Shown here: positions 116-42,337 of the stretch, in pieces
Layout of the letters: each line of letters begins with the position of its first letter
How positions within the stretch are numbered: the stretch's first letter is position 1
Source of the DNA: a virus
Direction: 5' to 3' (one strand)
Length of the DNA stretch: 42,337 nt
Virus record (IMG/VR): IMGVR_UViG_3300045988_126214
Made by a program: the position numbers and the translations under genes
Notes under the pieces: generated by a model
Databases searched by the model: none
The model's input: only the letters and a program-made list of their open reading frames with translations
What the model was told of the DNA's origin: nothing

Positions 116-142
116 GTCTATGTAAGGAACAATGAAAGCGAG

Positions 143-385
143 GTGAGAAGTCAAACGTTAGCAAATATAGAAAAAGAAAGAATAAAGAGAAAAATTACCC
201 AAGGACAGTTGGCTATGAAAATTGGAGTATCTCATAAGACTTATTACAACTGGATTAATGAAGTGCGAGATATTCCAAGTAGAAAATTGCAGAGGTTAGC
301 CAAAATACTTGATGTAACAATGGAGTATCTGTTGGAAAGTAGTACAGAAATAGAAAGGAGTAGGGAAAATGAGAAATTTGGATGA
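143..385 (+). CDS. XRE-family HTH protein, cro-like early regulator (start uncertain: GTG 143, ATG 104, or TTG 50)
   Basis: HTH signature ITQGQLAMKIGVSHKTYYNWINEVRDIPSRKLQRLAKIL. It is divergent from the cI-like repressor once the IS is removed. TTG 50 lies inside the IS end and ATG 104 lies inside the predicted promoter. Confidence 0.75.
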   Translation: MRSQTLANIEKERIKRKITQGQLAMKIGVSHKTYYNWINEVRDIPSRKLQRLAKILDVTMEYLLESSTEIERSRENEKFG

Positions 386-3646: not shown

Positions 3647-3658
3647 TAAGAAAGCAGG

Positions 3659-3889
3659 ATGCGAAAAATGAACACAGGAAAAATATTGACAACTGAAGCT
3701 GCTGCAATTCTCAATACATCCCCACAGTTTGTACGTGTTGCAATGCAGCAGGGCAAGCTGCCGATCGGCACAGCAATCAAGATGTCGTCTATATGGACTT
3801 ATAACATTTCTGGAAAACTTCTGGCGGAATATAGCGGAAAAGATGTTGAAAAAGAGCTGGAACAGATCAGAAAAAAGAAAGTTATGTAA
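3659..3889 (+). CDS. Small HTH DNA-binding protein (excisionase/MerR-like fold; candidate Xis or early regulator)
   Basis: ILTTEAAAILNTSPQFVRVAMQQGKLP is a typical Xis/AlpA-type winged-HTH signature. Last gene of the early operon. Confidence 0.6.
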   Translation: MRKMNTGKILTTEAAAILNTSPQFVRVAMQQGKLPIGTAIKMSSIWTYNISGKLLAEYSGKDVEKELEQIRKKKVM

Positions 3890-3904
3890 ACTAAAGAAAA
3901 GAGC

Positions 3905-3956
3905 CGATGCAAGGGGTGCATCGACTCAGGTCCATATGTAATCAACCAATTACATA
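3905..3956. promoter_or_regulatory. Two stem-loops upstream of rep; candidate double-strand origin / nick-site region
   Basis: CGATGCA-AGGGG-TGCATCG (3905-3923) and TATGTAAT-CAACCA-ATTACATA (3935-3956). Neither is followed by a U-run. Confidence 0.35.
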
Positions 3957-3998
3957 GTATCACTGGGCCGCTAAAAAGTCAAGAATGTAAGAAAAAAT

Positions 3999-4020
3999 CA
4001 GGGGTGAAATTCCCCTGTTT
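3999..4020 (+). terminator. Terminator-like hairpin closing the early operon
   Basis: CAGGGG-TGAAATT-CCCCTG followed by TTT. Confidence 0.5.
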
Positions 4021-4059
4021 AGTACTCGATTAAGATATTAAACTTAGGAGCCTTTTGGT

Positions 4060-4821
4060 ATGAAAACAAAGCGTAAAACCTGGTATCTGCAGAAGAAGGA
4101 TATCCTGTATGTGGAAGAGAATTATGATGGAAAGTATGGAGCTAAGGGGAAGGAGAGACTGCCTAAGAGAAAGCTCACTCCCGAAGATGTTCAGAGAGTA
4201 AACGCCTGGAATAAATCCAAGAGGGCAAGACTCAGGCTGATGGAATATTTTTCGCCAGGTGATCTTTGGGTGACATTTACATACAAGCCAGAGAACAGAC
4301 CTCCAGATATGGACACTGCCAAGAAGCAGTTTTTGAAAATGATGGACAAGCTAAGAAAGATTTACAGGAAAAAAGACAGGGAGCTCTTCTGGATCCGGAA
4401 CATTGAGCGGGGGACGAAGGGAGCCTGGCATATACATTGTATTATCAACGATATTGGAAATACGGCAAGTCTTGTTGAAAGGACCTGGCCCTATGGTGGA
4501 GTATATGTAACTCAGATCAGGAAGAGTAAGTGCCCGGAAGAGGATTTCCAGAAGCTGGCTGATTACATCACCAAGGATGAGAAAACTAGGGAAAAGAAAC
4601 AAGACGGAACCCTGGCAAAGCCCAGACTTAGTGAAGCAAACTACAGCCATTCCAGGAACATGCCGCTTCCAGAGCCAAAGCCAGAGGAACTGAAGCGTTG
4701 GCCTAAGAAAGTGAAGCCTAAGAAAGGTTACTACATAGCAGAGCTCTTTGAGGGAAAAAATCCGGTAACTGGGCACAATTACCGCCATTACACATTGATC
4801 AGATTGTACAGACGAATTTAA
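4060..4821 (+). CDS. HUH-superfamily rolling-circle replication initiator (Rep)
   Basis: The three RCR motifs occur in the canonical order: I WVTFTY, II (HUH) WHIHCII, III (YxxK) DYITKDEK. Confidence 0.8.
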   Translation: MKTKRKTWYLQKKDILYVEENYDGKYGAKGKERLPKRKLTPEDVQRVNAWNKSKRARLRLMEYFSPGDLWVTFTYKPENRPPDMDTAKKQFLKMMDKLRKIYRKKDRELFWIRNIERGTKGAWHIHCIINDIGNTASLVERTWPYGGVYVTQIRKSKCPEEDFQKLADYITKDEKTREKKQDGTLAKPRLSEANYSHSRNMPLPEPKPEELKRWPKKVKPKKGYYIAELFEGKNPVTGHNYRHYTLIRLYRRI

Positions 4822-39180: not shown

Positions 39181-39954
39181 TTATTCATCAAAAATATAAA
39201 ATTCTTTTATTTTTTTATTAATGCGAGACATTGTGTTCGCTGAAAGACGGATACCGGATAAGAAATCAGCCGCCTTTTTGGGAGTATAAATACGCATTTT
39301 GCTAATTGCAGTGATTTGCTCAATTTTCGCAATACTTCCTGTTTTCATATTTTCAATTTCAAATTTATCTCTTTCTAGCAAAAAGATTGTCTTTTCAAGC
39401 TCTCCTATTTGCTCTGTGAGATTATTCAAAGCATTTGTTACTTCTGCCGTTTGTTGAGACTCTGGTATTTTTGCAAAAACCTCATAGAGTGAACGAAATT
39501 CGCTTAATTTGGTTTTTACATCGATCAGTTGTCGGCCAAATCTAGTAGATACAAGGCTATAAAATTCAGTACCAAGTGACAAATCACGCTCATGAACTTC
39601 CTTATTTGGCTTAATGGAAGATAAAGGGACAACCATGAGAGTATTAGCATTATGAGGATTTTTTTTATCCAATACAACAGCATAGTGCAAGCCCCCTAAT
39701 TCGGCACCCACGCGAAAACCAAAATTAACACGAATAATATCGCCACGTGTATACGCCAATAGTTTTGATGGATTAAATTTTTCCTCAAAACGGATGAACT
39801 CGGCATAGCTCTGCAGCCAATAAGAAATTAAATCAGCTTTCTTCAAATGTTTATTAGAGGAATCATTGATTAACGCTTCAAGTATGTTGTTCATGGATCT
39901 TATGGCCTTCTTTTTGTTTTGGATAACATCCTCTTTGGTTATAGGACGAGACAA
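39181..39954 (-). CDS. 257-aa MazF/PemK-fold protein with an N-terminal extension and a ~95-aa coiled-coil insertion; orphan, with no adjacent antitoxin
   Basis: GDIIRVNFGFRVGAELGGLHYAVVL, TLMVVPLSS and GSIAKIEQITAISKMRI align by eye with the MazF blocks GDLIWVDFDPTKGSEQAGHRPAVVLS, MCLCVPCTT and GVALADQVKSIAWRAR. TTG start 7 nt after AAGGAGG. Confidence 0.7.
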   Translation of the reverse strand: MSRPITKEDVIQNKKKAIRSMNNILEALINDSSNKHLKKADLISYWLQSYAEFIRFEEKFNPSKLLAYTRGDIIRVNFGFRVGAELGGLHYAVVLDKKNPHNANTLMVVPLSSIKPNKEVHERDLSLGTEFYSLVSTRFGRQLIDVKTKLSEFRSLYEVFAKIPESQQTAEVTNALNNLTEQIGELEKTIFLLERDKFEIENMKTGSIAKIEQITAISKMRIYTPKKAADFLSGIRLSANTMSRINKKIKEFYIFDE

Positions 39955-40026
39955 TCGACCACCTCCTTAGGGTTAGATTTTATTAAAACGCCGAAGCAAA
40001 TTAATCCCTCTGTTTATCGTATAATA

Positions 40027-40054
40027 AGTATAAAAGATAATGCTGAACGAACAA
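40027..40054 (-). promoter_or_regulatory. Candidate promoter of the MazF-like gene, TTGTTC-16-TATACT
   Basis: The -35 (40054-40049) lies inside Cheo-like box 1. Confidence 0.4.
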
Positions 40055-40061
40055 ATGTTTG
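40048..40061. promoter_or_regulatory. Cheo/LexA-like box 1, CGAACAAATGTTTG
   Basis: One mismatch from the Gram-positive SOS-box consensus CGAAC-N4-GTTCG. Confidence 0.5.
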
Positions 40062-40070
40062 TGAAATATA

Positions 40071-40099
40071 TTGCACTTCAAATATAAATGGTGTATATT
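40071..40099 (+). promoter_or_regulatory. Promoter TTGCAC-17-TATATT for the 41-aa ORF
   Basis: Hexamers at 40071-40076 and 40094-40099. The predicted +1 falls in box 2. Confidence 0.5.
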
Positions 40100-40104
40100 A
40101 AAAA

Positions 40105-40118
40105 CAAACAAACGTTCG
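40105..40118. promoter_or_regulatory. Cheo/LexA-like box 2, CAAACAAACGTTCG (reverse complement CGAACGTTTGTTTG)
   Basis: Same one-mismatch match as box 1, in inverted orientation, 43 nt away. Confidence 0.5.
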
Positions 40119-40144
40119 AATAAACGAGAACGGGGGGCATACAT

Positions 40145-40270
40145 ATGATGAAGAATGATAAAGAAGAGTACAAGGGCAAAATAATTGAGTTGGTAAACTT
40201 GATTAAAGAAGAATCCGTTCTGAGGCGGATCTACTTAATAATAATTACCATGATAGGGGCCGACCATTGA
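40145..40270 (+). CDS. 41-aa hypothetical protein (candidate SOS-controlled antirepressor), below the ORF-track cutoff
   Basis: GGGGGG RBS upstream of ATGATG. Translation MMKNDKEEYKGKIIELVNLIKEESVLRRIYLIIITMIGADH. Confidence 0.45.
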   Translation: MMKNDKEEYKGKIIELVNLIKEESVLRRIYLIIITMIGADH

Positions 40271-40285
40271 GGGTGGCTCTTTTCT
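40259..40285 (+). terminator. Hairpin plus T-rich tract between the convergent 41-aa ORF and the repressor gene
   Basis: GCC(G)ACC-ATTGAG-GGTGGC followed by TCTTTTCTT. Confidence 0.4.
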
Positions 40286-40662
40286 TATTCTATGCCCAGG
40301 CAAGCTTTCATAAATTCTTCAATATGTTTTAGCTTTTCCGGATCAGCTTCTGCGATAGCATTTAACATATTTCTCGCCATCTGGTTCTCGGTCCTACTAA
40401 GTTTTCCAAGATTAATAGAGAATCGATCTTCTTCATTCACTTTCGTGAACATGTTATCGTCTCCGCCTTCACCGGTTCGAAGCCAAATTTCATTTACTTC
40501 AAATTCACGACAAATAGATTTTATATTAGCCTCAGTTAAACTATTACGACCAGTTTCGATAGCACTCATAGTGTTCTTTTTCAAACCTATTTTTTCACCG
40601 AATTTTTCAAGCGTAAGTTGACGGGTTTTCCGAACTTTTTTTACGCGTTCGCCTTGCGTCAT
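40285..40662 (-). CDS. cI-like XRE-family HTH repressor (125 aa, no S24 peptidase domain)
   Basis: LTLEKFGEKIGLKKNTMSAIETGRNSLTEANIKSICREF HTH. AAGGAGGA RBS before ATG 40662. Divergent from the cro-like gene. Confidence 0.85.
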   Translation of the reverse strand: MTQGERVKKVRKTRQLTLEKFGEKIGLKKNTMSAIETGRNSLTEANIKSICREFEVNEIWLRTGEGGDDNMFTKVNEEDRFSINLGKLSRTENQMARNMLNAIAEADPEKLKHIEEFMKACLGIE

Positions 40663-40689: not shown

Positions 40690-40718
40690 AATATAGCACC
40701 CTGGGATTGCAAAGTCAA
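40690..40718 (-). promoter_or_regulatory. Repressor promoter TTGACT-17-TATATT
   Basis: -35 at 40718-40713 and -10 at 40695-40690. Confidence 0.6.
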
Positions 40719-40746
40719 CAAAAAAGTTCATTAAATAGACAAATAA
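40718..40746. repeat. Left copy of the 29-bp target-site duplication
   Basis: Identical to 55-83. Confidence 0.8.
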
Positions 40747-40823
40747 TATGAACCATTTATGATAATGTCCTAATATACCACAAAGGAAAATGTCCCAATG
40801 TAGTATAATGCTTCCATCAACAG

Positions 40824-42248
40824 ATGGAGGTAACGATTATCAGAAAGGTAGAATTATCAATGGATGAACAAAAGAAGTATGAGGTGATCAAATCATTGGC
40901 AGATCATCCAGCCCCTAACAAGCAGAGAGCTGCCCTTACTCTCGGTTGTACTGTACGTCACATTAACCGTATGCTTAAAGGCTACAAAGAGCATGGCAAA
41001 GCCTATTTTATCCATGGCAACAGAGGACGTAAGCCAGCCAATACCATCCCCAATGAAACTCGTAATCTTGTTGTCGATTTATACCGCAACAAATACTATG
41101 ATGCCAATTTTGTGCATTTCACTGAGTTATTAGGAAAACATGAAGATATCCACATCTCCCCTTCAGCGGTTATGTCTATTCTCGAAGCTGAATACATTCT
41201 CTCTCCCAAGGCTACAAAAGCTAAGAAAAAGAGAATCAAAGAACAATTAAAAGCCGATAAAAAAGCAGCGAAATCTCAGAAAGAAGCGGATCAGATACAG
41301 ATTAATCTTGTTGCTCTTGAGGACGCCCATTCCCGCCGTCCCAGAGCCGCTTATTTCGGTGAACTGCAGCAAATGGACGCAACTCCCTACGAATGGATCC
41401 CCGGTCAGATATGGCATCTGCATCTGGCTATAGATGATGCTACAGGAAGGATTACCGGCGGTTGGTTTGATACCCAGGAAACTCTGAATGGCTATTACCA
41501 CGTTTTCCATCAGATCCTCACAACTTACGGTATCCCCTACAAGTTCTTTACAGACCGCCGTACTGTTTTCACCTATAAAAAGAAAAACTCCCCATCTATC
41601 GATGAGGATACCTATACACAGTTTGCCTATGCCTGTAAACAGCTGGGGGTTGAACTGGGATCAAGCAGTGTGCCTCAGGCAAAAGGACGTGTAGAACGCC
41701 TGAACCAGACGCTACAGTCGCGCCTGCCAGTCGAGTTAAGACTTGCAGGCATAACGACCATAGACGCTGCCAATGAATTCCTAAACTCCTACATAAAGGA
41801 ATTCAATGAGAAGTTTTCCCTTCCCATTCATGGTATCAAGTCTGTGTTCGAAGTGCAACCCCAAATTGAAAAAATTAACCTGATTCTTGCAGTTTTATGC
41901 GAAAGAACGGTAGATACCGGACACTGTTTAAGGCATTCCAATAAATACTACCGTATGATTGACAGCAGAGGCAATCAGGTCCACTACCGAAAAGGAACAA
42001 AGGTAATGTTTATTCAGGCTTTTGATGGCAGTCAATACTGCTGTGTAAATGACAAAGACATCTACGCACTGGAAGAAATACCCGAGCACGAAACAAAATC
42101 AAAAGACTTAGATATAGACTATACTCCGCCAAAACCAAAGAAGCCCCGCATTCCACCAATGAATCATCCCTGGCGTCGCCAACAGTTTGGAAAGTTTGTC
42201 AAACAGCAAGAACACCACCAGAATGATCAAGATACAAAAATTGCCTGA
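40824..42248 (+). CDS. DDE (rve/integrase-core) transposase with an N-terminal HTH, ISNCY-like
   Basis: N-terminal HTH (ALTLGCTVRHINRMLKGY). Catalytic QMDATP (D), FFTDRRTVF (D), AKGRVERLNQTLQ (E). Alternative start at ATG 40860. Confidence 0.88.
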   Translation: MEVTIIRKVELSMDEQKKYEVIKSLADHPAPNKQRAALTLGCTVRHINRMLKGYKEHGKAYFIHGNRGRKPANTIPNETRNLVVDLYRNKYYDANFVHFTELLGKHEDIHISPSAVMSILEAEYILSPKATKAKKKRIKEQLKADKKAAKSQKEADQIQINLVALEDAHSRRPRAAYFGELQQMDATPYEWIPGQIWHLHLAIDDATGRITGGWFDTQETLNGYYHVFHQILTTYGIPYKFFTDRRTVFTYKKKNSPSIDEDTYTQFAYACKQLGVELGSSSVPQAKGRVERLNQTLQSRLPVELRLAGITTIDAANEFLNSYIKEFNEKFSLPIHGIKSVFEVQPQIEKINLILAVLCERTVDTGHCLRHSNKYYRMIDSRGNQVHYRKGTKVMFIQAFDGSQYCCVNDKDIYALEEIPEHETKSKDLDIDYTPPKPKKPRIPPMNHPWRRQQFGKFVKQQEHHQNDQDTKIA

Positions 42249-42282
42249 GGAATGAAACGAATCAATTTAACAAGCCCCAGCA

Positions 42283-42337
42283 AAAAGCCGGGGCTAATAC
42301 TTCAATTATTTTAGGACATTTTCAAAAACGCTTGACA
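42283..42337. repeat. 55-bp terminal overlap (identical to 1-55)
   Basis: See 1-55. Confidence 0.9.

What the first reader, a model, noticed from the sequence alone, without database searches (positions are those of the whole stretch)
40027..40270. Two Cheo/LexA-like boxes over divergent promoters: possible SOS wiring of a 41-aa antirepressor candidate and of the MazF-like gene
CGAACAAATGTTTG (40048-40061) and its inverted partner CAAACAAACGTTCG (40105-40118) each differ by one base from the Gram-positive SOS box CGAAC-N4-GTTCG. Box 2 covers the predicted +1 of TTGCAC-17-TATATT, which drives a 41-aa ORF (40145-40270). Box 1 overlaps the -35 of the candidate promoter of the MazF-like gene. The phage repressor (125 aa) has an HTH but no S24 autocleavage domain, so RecA-stimulated self-cleavage is unlikely. 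Induction through a LexA-controlled small antirepressor, as with Tum of coliphage 186, would fit. The alternative is that the symmetric pair is an operator set for a phage regulator rather than for LexA.
Basis: partly seen in the sequence, partly recalled or inferred. Interest (0 to 1): 0.62.

Follow-up and report, generated by a model that had tools for sequence, protein, structure and literature searches.

The report
SOS-controlled small antirepressor of a gut phage
Two binding sites for the host's DNA-damage repressor LexA bracket the promoter of a 41-residue phage gene, which most likely switches off the phage's non-cleavable repressor, a known way of waking a dormant phage that is seen here in gut Lachnospiraceae phages.

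Summary
Both boxes are real and are not chance. They are the only two CGAAC-N4-GTTYG sites in the 42-kb circular phage. They score 19.4 and 15.9 bits on a matrix built from Blautia recA, uvrA and lexA operators, and the next best site in the window scores 9.3. Box 1 is identical to the uvrA operator of two Blautia genomes.

The boxes bracket TTGCAC-17-TATATT, which drives a real gene. The 41-aa ORF belongs to an unannotated family of helical-hairpin proteins of 31-51 aa. Family members always lie convergent with a short XRE repressor and abut its 3' end. In 17 of 29 distinct related loci, spanning at least 9 promoter layouts, a LexA site sits on the core promoter.

The small-protein type tracks the repressor's C-terminal domain (r = 0.74), not its HTH (r = 0.24). 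The repressor family matches phi106 AimC full length (PDB 9sf2, solved with its antirepressor AimX).

Best reading: a LexA-gated, AimX/Tum-like antirepressor. LexA binding, damage induction and protein contact are all inferred.

SOS wiring of the MazF-like gene is not supported. Thirteen homologues of that gene in other phages have no LexA site upstream, and the leftward promoter is weak.

The phage-operator alternative is rejected.

The parts
40048..40061 (.). LexA (Cheo-type) box 1, CGAACAAATGTTTG, ending 9 nt upstream of the -35
   Evidence: Scores 19.4 bits on the Blautia SOS matrix. Identical to the uvrA operator in two Blautia genomes, L145 and L154.
40071..40076 (+). -35 element TTGCAC of the small-ORF promoter
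   Evidence: Read from the sequence. A TTGnnn-17-TAnnnT promoter sits at the same place in all LexA-class relatives. It matches TTGACA at only 3 of 6 positions, so the consensus scan did not list it.
40094..40099 (+). -10 element TATATT, preceded by TG
40105..40118 (.). LexA box 2, CGAACGTTTGTTTG on the minus strand, covering the predicted +1
   Evidence: Scores 15.9 bits. A proximal box of this type (CAAAC-N4-GTTCG) lies 4-16 nt after the -10 in many diverged relatives.
40132..40137 (+). Shine-Dalgarno G-run, 7 nt before the ATG
   Evidence: Relatives have GGAGGGG at this place.
40145..40270 (+). 41-aa ORF: candidate antirepressor, predicted helical hairpin
   Evidence: Family alignment A1. 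179 protein clusters at 90% identity, all unnamed or labelled hypothetical apart from two evidently spurious automatic labels, none with a Pfam domain. AlphaFold2 gives helices 3-19 and 23-38 at pLDDT 88.5. No Pfam or PHROG family.
40252..40284 (+). Terminator-like hairpin with a U-rich tail between the small ORF and the repressor stop codon
   Evidence: Fold of -14.9 kcal/mol, but z = -0.42 against shuffles, so weak on its own. By my own reading of the sequences printed (not folded or scanned), the type b and c relatives have clearer hairpins with T-runs at the same place.
40285..40662 (-). 125-aa XRE-type repressor: five-helix HTH, linker, three-helix C-terminal domain, no S24 domain
   Evidence: Pfam HTH_19 and HTH_3 only. 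AlphaFold2 pLDDT 88. The family profile hits phi106 AimC (PDB 9sf2_A) over residues 4-122 at E = 2e-12.
40690..40718 (-). Candidate repressor promoter TTGACT-17-TATATT, with TG before the -10
40747..42337 (+). IS element (474-aa transposase at 40824-42248) inserted between the repressor and cro promoters (context only)
   Evidence: The 29-bp duplication at 40718-46 and 55-83 and the 55-bp circular overlap were both verified.
140..385 (+). Cro-like HTH gene, divergent from the repressor across the circular junction and the IS (context only)
   Evidence: Pfam HTH_3 at 5.9e-13. Sequence.
40037..40065 (-). Weak candidate leftward promoter TTCACA-17-CATTAT, whose -35 overlaps box 1
   Evidence: Matches 9 of 12 positions, and the region holds no more such matches than its shuffles do.
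39181..39954 (-). 257-aa PemK/MazF-domain (Sma-like) gene: a neighbour, not shown to belong to the SOS unit
   Evidence: Pfam PemK_toxin at 1.2e-10. phrog_1412 at 1.5e-47. Homologues in other phages lack LexA sites.

Best explanation
The interval 40048-40270 is an SOS input module of a temperate Lachnospiraceae phage, probably of Blautia.

Proposed sequence of events:
1. In a lysogen, host LexA dimers occupy two Cheo-type operators. These bracket the sigma-A promoter TTGCAC-17-TATATT. Box 1 ends 9 nt upstream of the -35 and box 2 covers the +1. LexA thereby keeps a 41-aa gene silent.
2. DNA damage activates RecA, LexA cleaves itself, and the promoter fires.
3. The 41-aa helical-hairpin protein is made.
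4. It binds the three-helix C-terminal oligomerisation domain of the 125-aa XRE repressor, which cannot cleave itself. Repressor oligomers break up and leave the operators at the repressor-cro region. Lytic transcription starts.

What is shown:
- The sites exist, are statistically exceptional, and match host SOS operators.
- The small ORF is a conserved gene family fixed next to the 3' end of the repressor gene.
- LexA sites recur on non-homologous promoters of family members.
- The small-protein type tracks the repressor's C-terminal domain.
- The repressor has no S24 domain and resembles phi106 AimC.

What is inferred: LexA binding, damage inducibility, the protein-protein contact, and its effect on DNA binding.
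For: Site statistics:
- Only 2 CGAAC-N4-GTTYG sites in 42 kb, against 0.04 expected.
- Whole Blautia genomes of 3-4 Mb hold only 2-4 such sites. These lie at recA, uvrA and a Y-family polymerase gene.

Match to host operators:
- The recA operator is CGAACATAGGTT(C/T)G in most of 25 sampled Blautia genomes.
- The uvrA operator is CGAACAAATGTTTG, identical to box 1, in two genomes.
- Matrix scores are 19.4 and 15.9 bits, against 9.3 for the next best site.
- The cassette occurs in a Blautia MAG that encodes LexA.

Family and context:
- 80 related repressor loci were fetched.
- The convergent small-ORF family has the consensus YKxxIxELxxxIxxExxLxxIY.
- 17 of 29 distinct loci have a LexA site of at least 15 bits 33-70 nt before the ATG. 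Only 0.6% of 963 control windows reach 11 bits.
- At least 9 promoter layouts carry the site in the spacer, just after the -10, or next to the -35.
- An independent example, L204, has a 19.9-bit site.
- The same gene order holds in three further contexts.

Partner specificity:
- Small-ORF types a, b and c follow the repressor's C-terminal-domain types across five HTH types.
- Mantel r = 0.74 for small ORF against C-terminal domain, and r = 0.24 against the HTH.

Structure:
- The small protein is a helical hairpin.
- The repressor is an HTH plus a three-helix C-terminal domain.
- The repressor profile hits PDB 9sf2_A, 'Phage Phi106 repressor in complex with AimX', full length at E = 2e-12.

Precedent: AimX is a LexA-controlled 29-aa ORF convergent with aimC. 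[quoted passage not shown]
Against: - No experimental or expression data could be obtained.
- The window's own genome is not held. The host is therefore inferred from a Blautia MAG that carries a near-identical cassette.
- The co-variation of the small ORF with the C-terminal domain is confounded by adjacency: the two coding stretches abut.
- The small ORF has no sequence similarity to AimX, Tum, SinI or any Pfam or PHROG family.
- The -35 TTGCAC matches the consensus at only 3 of 6 positions.
- Twelve of 29 family members have no LexA site, so LexA control is not a property of the whole family.
- No complex could be modelled, because the structure tool folds single chains only.
- An IS sits between the repressor and cro promoters, so this particular copy of the switch may be altered.
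Confidence: 0.68

Rival explanations
1. LexA controls the promoter, but the effector is the transcript. Convergent transcription or antisense RNA across the repressor gene lowers repressor synthesis, and the 41-aa ORF is incidental or only auxiliary.
For: The promoter points into the 3' end of the repressor gene. Only 14 nt separate the two stop codons. The hairpin between them is not significant against shuffles, so read-through is possible.
Against: - The ORF is conserved as protein while its DNA diverges: 21 aligned members at 21-59% identity, with a strong RBS.
- Its type follows the repressor's C-terminal domain.
- By my own reading of the sequences (not folded or scanned), hairpins with T-runs follow the ORF in all three types.
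- In the AimX-AimC system, a stop-codon mutant abolished the effect and recoded alleles kept it (bioRxiv 10.1101/2025.11.23.689978).
Confidence: 0.1
2. The small protein is LexA-controlled but acts on something other than the phage repressor. Candidate targets are LexA or RecA (as with GIL01 gp7), the 57-65-aa upstream XRE protein seen in relatives, or a host factor.
For: The target was not shown. Small phage proteins that bind LexA exist (PMC4551915, listed). A second XRE gene accompanies the small ORF in 22 of 29 loci.
Against: - The small-ORF type tracks the C-terminal domain of the 125-aa repressor.
- The window has the small ORF but lacks the upstream XRE gene.
- A host target would not call for several divergent types of the small protein.
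Confidence: 0.1
3. The two boxes are operators of a phage-encoded regulator, not of LexA.
For: They form an inverted pair around a promoter (repeat I3).
Against: - They match host SOS operators exactly, or within one base of the Cheo consensus CGAAC-N4-GTTCG.
- The identical cassette serves phages with at least five different repressor HTH domains.
- LexA-type sites recur on non-homologous promoters of relatives.
- Nothing similar lies in the repressor-cro region.
Confidence: 0.04
4. Box 1 also puts the 257-aa MazF/Sma-like gene under SOS control through a divergent promoter. This is the second half of the first reader's title.
For: A minus-strand TTCACA-17-CATTAT places its -35 on box 1, about 75 nt upstream of the gene.
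Against: - The promoter matches only 9 of 12 positions, and the region holds no more such matches than its shuffles do.
- The same cassette lies next to other left-hand genes in 8 of 11 near-identical loci.
- Thirteen distinct homologues (41-51% identical) in other phages have no site of 10 bits or more within 350 nt upstream. Several appear to follow directly on an upstream ORF on the same strand.
Confidence: 0.15

Closest known systems
AimX-AimC-AimL module of 'extended arbitrium' Bacillus phages (phi106, phiW23, BMBtp14); bioRxiv 10.1101/2025.11.23.689978; PDB 9sf2 and 9iaq
   Same: - Both have a short XRE repressor (80-140 aa) with no autocleavage domain and a helical C-terminal oligomerisation domain.
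- Both have a cro-like gene divergent from the repressor.
- Both have a very small ORF (29-80 aa) convergent with the repressor gene and abutting its 3' end.
- In phi106 a LexA site lies just upstream of that ORF.
- In both, the small proteins are divergent and co-vary with their repressors.
- The window's repressor family matches phi106 AimC full length at E = 2e-12.
   Different: - There is no AimR receptor or AimP peptide here. The upstream slot holds a Sma-like defence gene in the window, or a 57-65-aa XRE gene in relatives.
- LexA acts through two operators around a dedicated promoter.
- The host is a gut Clostridia lineage, not Bacillus.
- The small protein has no detectable sequence similarity to AimX.
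Tum of coliphage 186, and the LexA-controlled antirepressors GfoA and GfhA of Salmonella Gifsy phages (PMC3121763)
   Same: - A non-cleavable repressor is inactivated by a small protein whose gene is under direct LexA control.
- In Gifsy phages one antirepressor acts on heteroimmune repressors. Here one small-ORF type pairs with repressors that carry different HTH domains.
   Different: - These are Gram-negative systems with an E. coli-type SOS box.
[quoted passage not shown]
- Tum is about 146 aa (from my own knowledge).
- There is no sequence or Pfam similarity to the 41-aa protein.
Sar-SroF of SPbeta and phi3T (bioRxiv 10.1101/2025.11.27.690993)
   Same: A Gram-positive phage with a Cheo-type LexA box upstream of a small antirepressor gene, and a repressor that RecA does not cleave. 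The antirepressor is specific to its cognate repressor.
   Different: SroF is an integrase-fold monomeric repressor, and Sar mimics DNA. Here the repressor is an XRE HTH protein, and the likely target is its oligomerisation domain.
SinI-SinR of Bacillus subtilis (PDB 1b0n; PMC3163267)
   Same: - An XRE-type HTH repressor with a helical C-terminal multimerisation domain is antagonised by a small helical protein that forms a heterodimer with that domain.
- SinR is among the best fold matches to the repressor model (rank 2).
- The small-ORF profile aligns best with the last two helices of the repressor's C-terminal domain.
   Different: - SinI is clearly homologous to the SinR C-terminus. Here the profile-profile signal is weak (P = 0.0025, probability 12%).
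- SinI is under Spo0A, not LexA.
- It is a chromosomal system, not a phage one.
TF-smORF modules of linear plasmid-like vibriophages (PMC10432266)
   Same: A small protein encoded next to a regulator inactivates the master repressor.
   Different: Those modules are SOS-independent and are switched on by a phage transcription factor. The window's module carries LexA boxes and no adjacent transcription factor. Relatives without LexA boxes may be closer to this logic.

Membership tests
LexA (Cheo/DinR-type) operator of Firmicutes | Sequence fits CGAAC-N4-GTTCG as it is used by the host clade | tested here: met
   Scores of 19.4 and 15.9 bits on a matrix of 33 Blautia recA, uvrA and lexA sites, whose own scores mostly run from 10 to 24 bits (one outlier at 2.6). 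The GTTTG variant occurs in real recA and uvrA operators.
LexA (Cheo/DinR-type) operator of Firmicutes | Placed on or next to a core promoter, so that binding blocks initiation | tested here: met
   Box 2 starts 5 nt after the -10. Box 1 ends 9 nt before the -35. Relatives show the same logic. The promoter itself is predicted, not mapped.
LexA (Cheo/DinR-type) operator of Firmicutes | Bound by host LexA and derepressed by DNA damage | not testable with these tools
   Needs EMSA or a reporter.
AimX-AimC-type antirepressor module | Short XRE repressor without an S24 domain, with a helical C-terminal oligomerisation domain, related to AimC | tested here: met
   Pfam finds HTH families only. AlphaFold2 gives helices 77-89, 94-104 and 108-122. 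The profile hits 9sf2_A at E = 2e-12 over residues 4-122.
AimX-AimC-type antirepressor module | ORF of 29-80 aa convergent with the repressor gene and abutting or overlapping its 3' end, with a cro-like gene on the far side | tested here: met
   The stop codons are 14 nt apart. The same order holds in relatives.
AimX-AimC-type antirepressor module | Small protein co-varies with its repressor | tested here: met
   Mantel r = 0.74 with the C-terminal domain and r = 0.24 with the HTH. Adjacency is a confounder.
AimX-AimC-type antirepressor module | Embedded downstream of aimR-aimP (arbitrium signalling) | tested here: not met
   In the window the upstream gene is the 257-aa PemK-domain gene on the opposite strand. 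In relatives it is a 57-65-aa XRE gene. No AimR-sized gene is present.
AimX-AimC-type antirepressor module | Direct binding of the small protein to the repressor's C-terminal domain, blocking oligomerisation and DNA binding | not testable with these tools
   Only single chains can be folded here. Needs a multimer model, two-hybrid, SEC-MALS or EMSA.
Tum (coliphage 186) family | Sequence or domain homology to Tum | tested here: not met
   The 41-aa protein has no Pfam, PHROG or PDB match. It is about a quarter of Tum's length (Tum's length is from my own knowledge).
SinI-like decoy (antagonist homologous to the repressor's C-terminal helices) | Detectable homology between the small protein and the repressor's C-terminal domain | tested here: inconclusive
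   The best hhalign alignment places the hairpin on the last two C-terminal helices, but at P = 0.0025 and probability 12%.

The most novel reading that the evidence does not exclude
The 41-aa protein would be one member of a large, unannotated family of repressor-tail decoys in gut Lachnospiraceae phages.

- Output. The family is a helical hairpin that may mimic the repressor's own C-terminal helices, as SinI does. It would form a fixed output module.
- Inputs. Different sensory inputs are swapped onto this output. About 60% of the loci sampled carry LexA boxes. The rest carry palindromes of the TTTCC...GGAAA or GTCC...GGAC type, which may be read by the 57-65-aa XRE protein encoded just upstream.
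- Cross-induction. One small-protein type serves repressors with different HTH domains. Heteroimmune prophages that share a C-terminal-domain type would therefore be induced together.
- SOS-independent fraction. A sizeable fraction of gut prophages would respond to cues other than DNA damage.
Probability: 0.3. Interest if true: 0.7.

Novelty: new member of a known kind. Interest (0 to 1): 0.5.

Why it matters
How prophages of the dominant gut Firmicutes are induced is largely unknown. Most of their repressors are short XRE proteins that RecA cannot cleave.

This locus gives a concrete and testable route: LexA, then a 41-aa antirepressor, then the repressor's C-terminal domain. It also defines a family of at least 179 unannotated small-protein clusters that marks this route in metagenomes.

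It extends the AimX-AimC logic, shown in late 2025 for Bacillus arbitrium phages, to arbitrium-less phages of Clostridia.

One small-protein type pairs with several HTH types. This predicts cross-induction among heteroimmune prophages, as seen in the Salmonella Gifsy phages.

About 40% of family members lack LexA sites, which points to SOS-independent triggers that are worth looking for.

Tried and rejected
- Own genome. The window's own genome is not held. No species-representative Lachnospiraceae genome among the 301 sampled carries this prophage. The host is therefore inferred from one Blautia MAG.
- Phage database. A GenBank phage search gave only an 80-nt hit to a Ruminococcus gnavus phage.
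- Expression data.
- Family searches. The small ORF has no Pfam or PHROG family. One relative hit phrog_26551 weakly at 0.0015.
- PDB searches. The profile search with the small-ORF family gave only chance hits and no AimX or SinI. Foldseek with the 41-aa model gave nothing.
- Decoy idea. hhalign of the small ORF against the repressor's C-terminal domain was suggestive only.
- Other induction routes. No ImmA/M78 protease and no Ant/Bro-type antirepressor appeared among the ORFs scanned, which were the lysogeny module and 14 ORFs of the early region. The remaining ORFs of the window were not scanned.
- Third genome hit. The Bacteroidales hit of the architecture pattern lies in GC-rich sequence with no resemblance to the cassette around it, and I read it as chance without mapping its ORFs.
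- MazF-like wiring. This reading was rejected on the evidence.

Full report
**Observation**

- Box 1, CGAACAAATGTTTG, is at 40048-40061.
- TTGCAC is at 40071-76, then a 17-nt spacer, then TATATT at 40094-99.
- Box 2 is at 40105-40118. It reads CGAACGTTTGTTTG on the minus strand.
- A G-run Shine-Dalgarno is at 40132-37.
- A 41-aa ORF is at 40145-40270.
- The 125-aa HTH gene at 40285-40662 is on the minus strand, so the two genes converge.

The two boxes are the only matches to CGAAC-N4-GTTYG in the 42,337-nt window. The chance expectation is 0.04.

The window is a closed circle with identical 55-nt ends. An IS bounded by a 29-bp duplication separates the repressor promoter from a cro-like HTH gene at about 140-385. 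This confirms earlier notes of the scan.

**Host and its SOS operator**

The window's genome is not held. An architecture pattern (box, N9, TTGCA, N18, TATATT) found a near-identical cassette in a MAG titled uncultured Blautia sp.. That genome encodes LexA.

- In that genome the only CGAAC-N4-GTTYG sites outside the phage lie upstream of recA and uvrA.
- Across 25 sampled genomes of the genus, recA carries CGAACATAGGTT(C/T)G or a close variant in nearly all.
- uvrA carries sites such as CGAACATATGTTTG. In two genomes its site is CGAACAAATGTTTG, identical to box 1.
- lexA carries weaker sites such as CGAATGTTTGTTTG.
- Three genomes of 3-4 Mb hold only 2-4 distinct sites each. These lie at recA, uvrA and a Y-family polymerase gene, with a few others.

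The single 'deviation' of each box (GTTTG in place of GTTCG) is therefore a normal variant of the host operator.

A palindromic matrix built from 33 such sites gives 19.4 bits for box 1 and 15.9 for box 2. The next best site in the whole phage scores 9.3. This promoter is the phage's only plausible LexA target.

**The small ORF is a real gene with a fixed partner**

Ten IMG/VR contigs carry the same promoter cassette. In them the small ORF comes in three protein types that share a pattern.
- Type a: MMKNDKEEYKGKIIELVNLIKEESVLRRIYLIIITMIGADH
- Type b: MNTEEKRERIRELIGKIEDDELLSFIYKLIKRLMD
- Type c: a 48-aa protein

A search with the repressor returned 80 further loci. In most of them a 31-51-aa ORF with a strong RBS lies convergent with the repressor gene and abuts its 3' end.

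Twenty-one members align with the consensus YKxxIxELxxxIxxExxLxxIY. A profile search found 179 protein clusters at 90% identity. Nearly all are unnamed or labelled hypothetical, two carry evidently spurious automatic labels, and none has a Pfam domain. Sources include Enterocloster bolteae and uncultured Clostridium.

Three unrelated members sit in the same gene order: recombinase, cargo, sometimes a 57-65-aa XRE gene, the small ORF, a convergent HTH_19 repressor of 123-127 aa, then early genes.

AlphaFold2 predicts a helical hairpin for the small protein, with helices 3-19 and 23-38 at pLDDT 88.5.

**LexA sites recur on non-homologous promoters**

Among 29 distinct loci of the family, 17 have a site of at least 15 bits lying 33-70 nt before the ATG. 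Only 0.6% of 963 control windows from the same loci reach 11 bits.

These 17 loci, together with L204, show at least nine promoter layouts. Each has a TTGnnn-17-TAnnnT promoter. The site lies in the spacer, 4-16 nt after the -10, or next to the -35. Several have two sites, as the window does. L204 is a further independent case, with a 19.9-bit site.

This is the strongest evidence that the boxes are functional LexA operators attached to the small ORF.

**Partner specificity**

The repressors are mosaics. They have an N-terminal HTH, a conserved WLRTGEGG-like linker, and a helical tail of about 55 aa.
- Type a small ORFs go with the tail ...NAIAEADPEKLKHIEEFMKACLGIE, on two unrelated HTH domains.
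- Type b goes with ...ALANLDESEWELLEKIAEKIAKEKD, on two other HTH domains.
- Type c goes with a third tail, on an HTH close to the window's.

Over 27 loci, small-ORF identity correlates with tail identity at r = 0.74. With HTH identity the correlation is r = 0.24. The partial correlation given the HTH is 0.73.

Adjacency of the two coding stretches is a confounder. Even so, the mosaic boundary keeps the small ORF and the tail together. That is what a binding pair predicts.

**The repressor**

Pfam finds only HTH families. The model shows five HTH helices, a linker, and three C-terminal helices, with no beta-rich S24 domain.

A profile of the family hits PDB 9sf2 chain A over residues 4-122 at E = 2e-12. 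That entry is titled 'Phage Phi106 repressor in complex with AimX'. SinR in complex with SinI is also among the best fold matches.

**Comparison with known systems**

The preprint 10.1101/2025.11.23.689978 describes the following in Bacillus phages. A 29-aa ORF, AimX, lies just downstream of a LexA site. It is convergent with the short non-cleavable HTH repressor AimC and overlaps it. AimX binds AimC's C-terminal oligomerisation domain, turns dimers into heterodimers, and releases the DNA. AimX proteins are divergent and co-vary with AimC.

The window shows the same anatomy without AimR or AimP.

LexA-controlled antirepressors are also known from several other phages.
- Coliphage 186 has Tum.
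- The Gifsy phages have such antirepressors (PMC3121763).
- SPbeta and phi3T have Sar (10.1101/2025.11.27.690993).

The finding is therefore a new member of a known kind, in a new host clade and with a new small-protein family.

**What is not supported**

SOS wiring of the 257-aa PemK/MazF-domain gene is not supported.
- The cassette lies next to that gene only in the window and two other loci. In eight near-identical loci the left neighbour is the 3' end of a plus-strand XRE gene.
- Thirteen homologues of the 257-aa gene in other phages have no LexA-like site within 350 nt upstream.
- The leftward promoter that overlaps box 1 matches only 9 of 12 positions, in a region with no more such matches than its shuffles.

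Incidental repression by LexA at box 1 cannot be excluded.

The phage-operator alternative is rejected.
- The same boxes serve at least five HTH types.
- They equal host operators.
- They have no counterpart in the repressor-cro region.

**Limits**

LexA binding, damage induction, the transcription start and the protein contact are all inferred.

The idea that the hairpin mimics the repressor's own last two helices, as SinI does, has only weak profile support (P = 0.0025, probability 12%).

Noticed in passing
L001, L003, L005, L011 and 22 of 29 related loci; absent at window ~39996-40012: A 57-65-aa XRE HTH gene (C-terminus ...SPTLDNLE.IA.AL.V.ISDLYDSPYK) lies on the same strand just upstream of the small ORF in most relatives. 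This holds with or without LexA boxes. The window lacks it. The indel is bounded by AATTAATC repeats, and the Sma-like gene sits in its place. It may be a second regulator of the small ORF.
   Followed up: partly
L107, L120, L201 (ATTTCCATGATTATGGAAAT); L132-L137 (TTTCCCGAAATCGGGAAA); L072, L065, L124, L198 (GTCC-N8-10-GGAC): The 12 small-ORF loci without LexA sites carry other palindromes, some in two copies, between the upstream XRE gene and the small ORF. This suggests that the same antirepressor-like output can be driven by a non-SOS input.
   Followed up: partly
window 40132-40137; L005 and L002 at the same place: The G-run that serves as the small ORF's Shine-Dalgarno varies in length among otherwise near-identical cassettes: 6, 7 or 10 G. 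Other cassettes have GGAGGGG. This could be assembly noise or slippage that tunes translation.
   Followed up: no
L012 ~3655-4143 (Lachnospiraceae MAG): A box-N9-TTGCAA-17-TATATT-box layout, using CGAACAAATGTTTG and GAACAGATGTTCG, drives a 79-aa zinc-ribbon-like ORF. A 368-aa ORF follows that looked sigma-factor-like to me by eye (no family search was run). This may be another LexA-gated mobile-element module.
   Followed up: no
window 40718-40746 and 55-83; 40747-42337: The IS (474-aa transposase) with a 29-bp target duplication sits exactly between the repressor promoter and the cro promoter. The molecule is nevertheless circular, with a 55-bp end overlap. Whether the switch still works in this copy is open.
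   Followed up: partly
L211, L216, L218, L220, L222 upstream of the Sma-like homologue: In several other phages the 257-aa-type MazF/Sma-like gene directly follows an ORF ending ...ANKFAMELLLPDSFL...IELKIHN. To me this looks like an ImmA/IrrE-type metallopeptidase (no family search was run), which hints at an operon context different from the window's.
   Followed up: no
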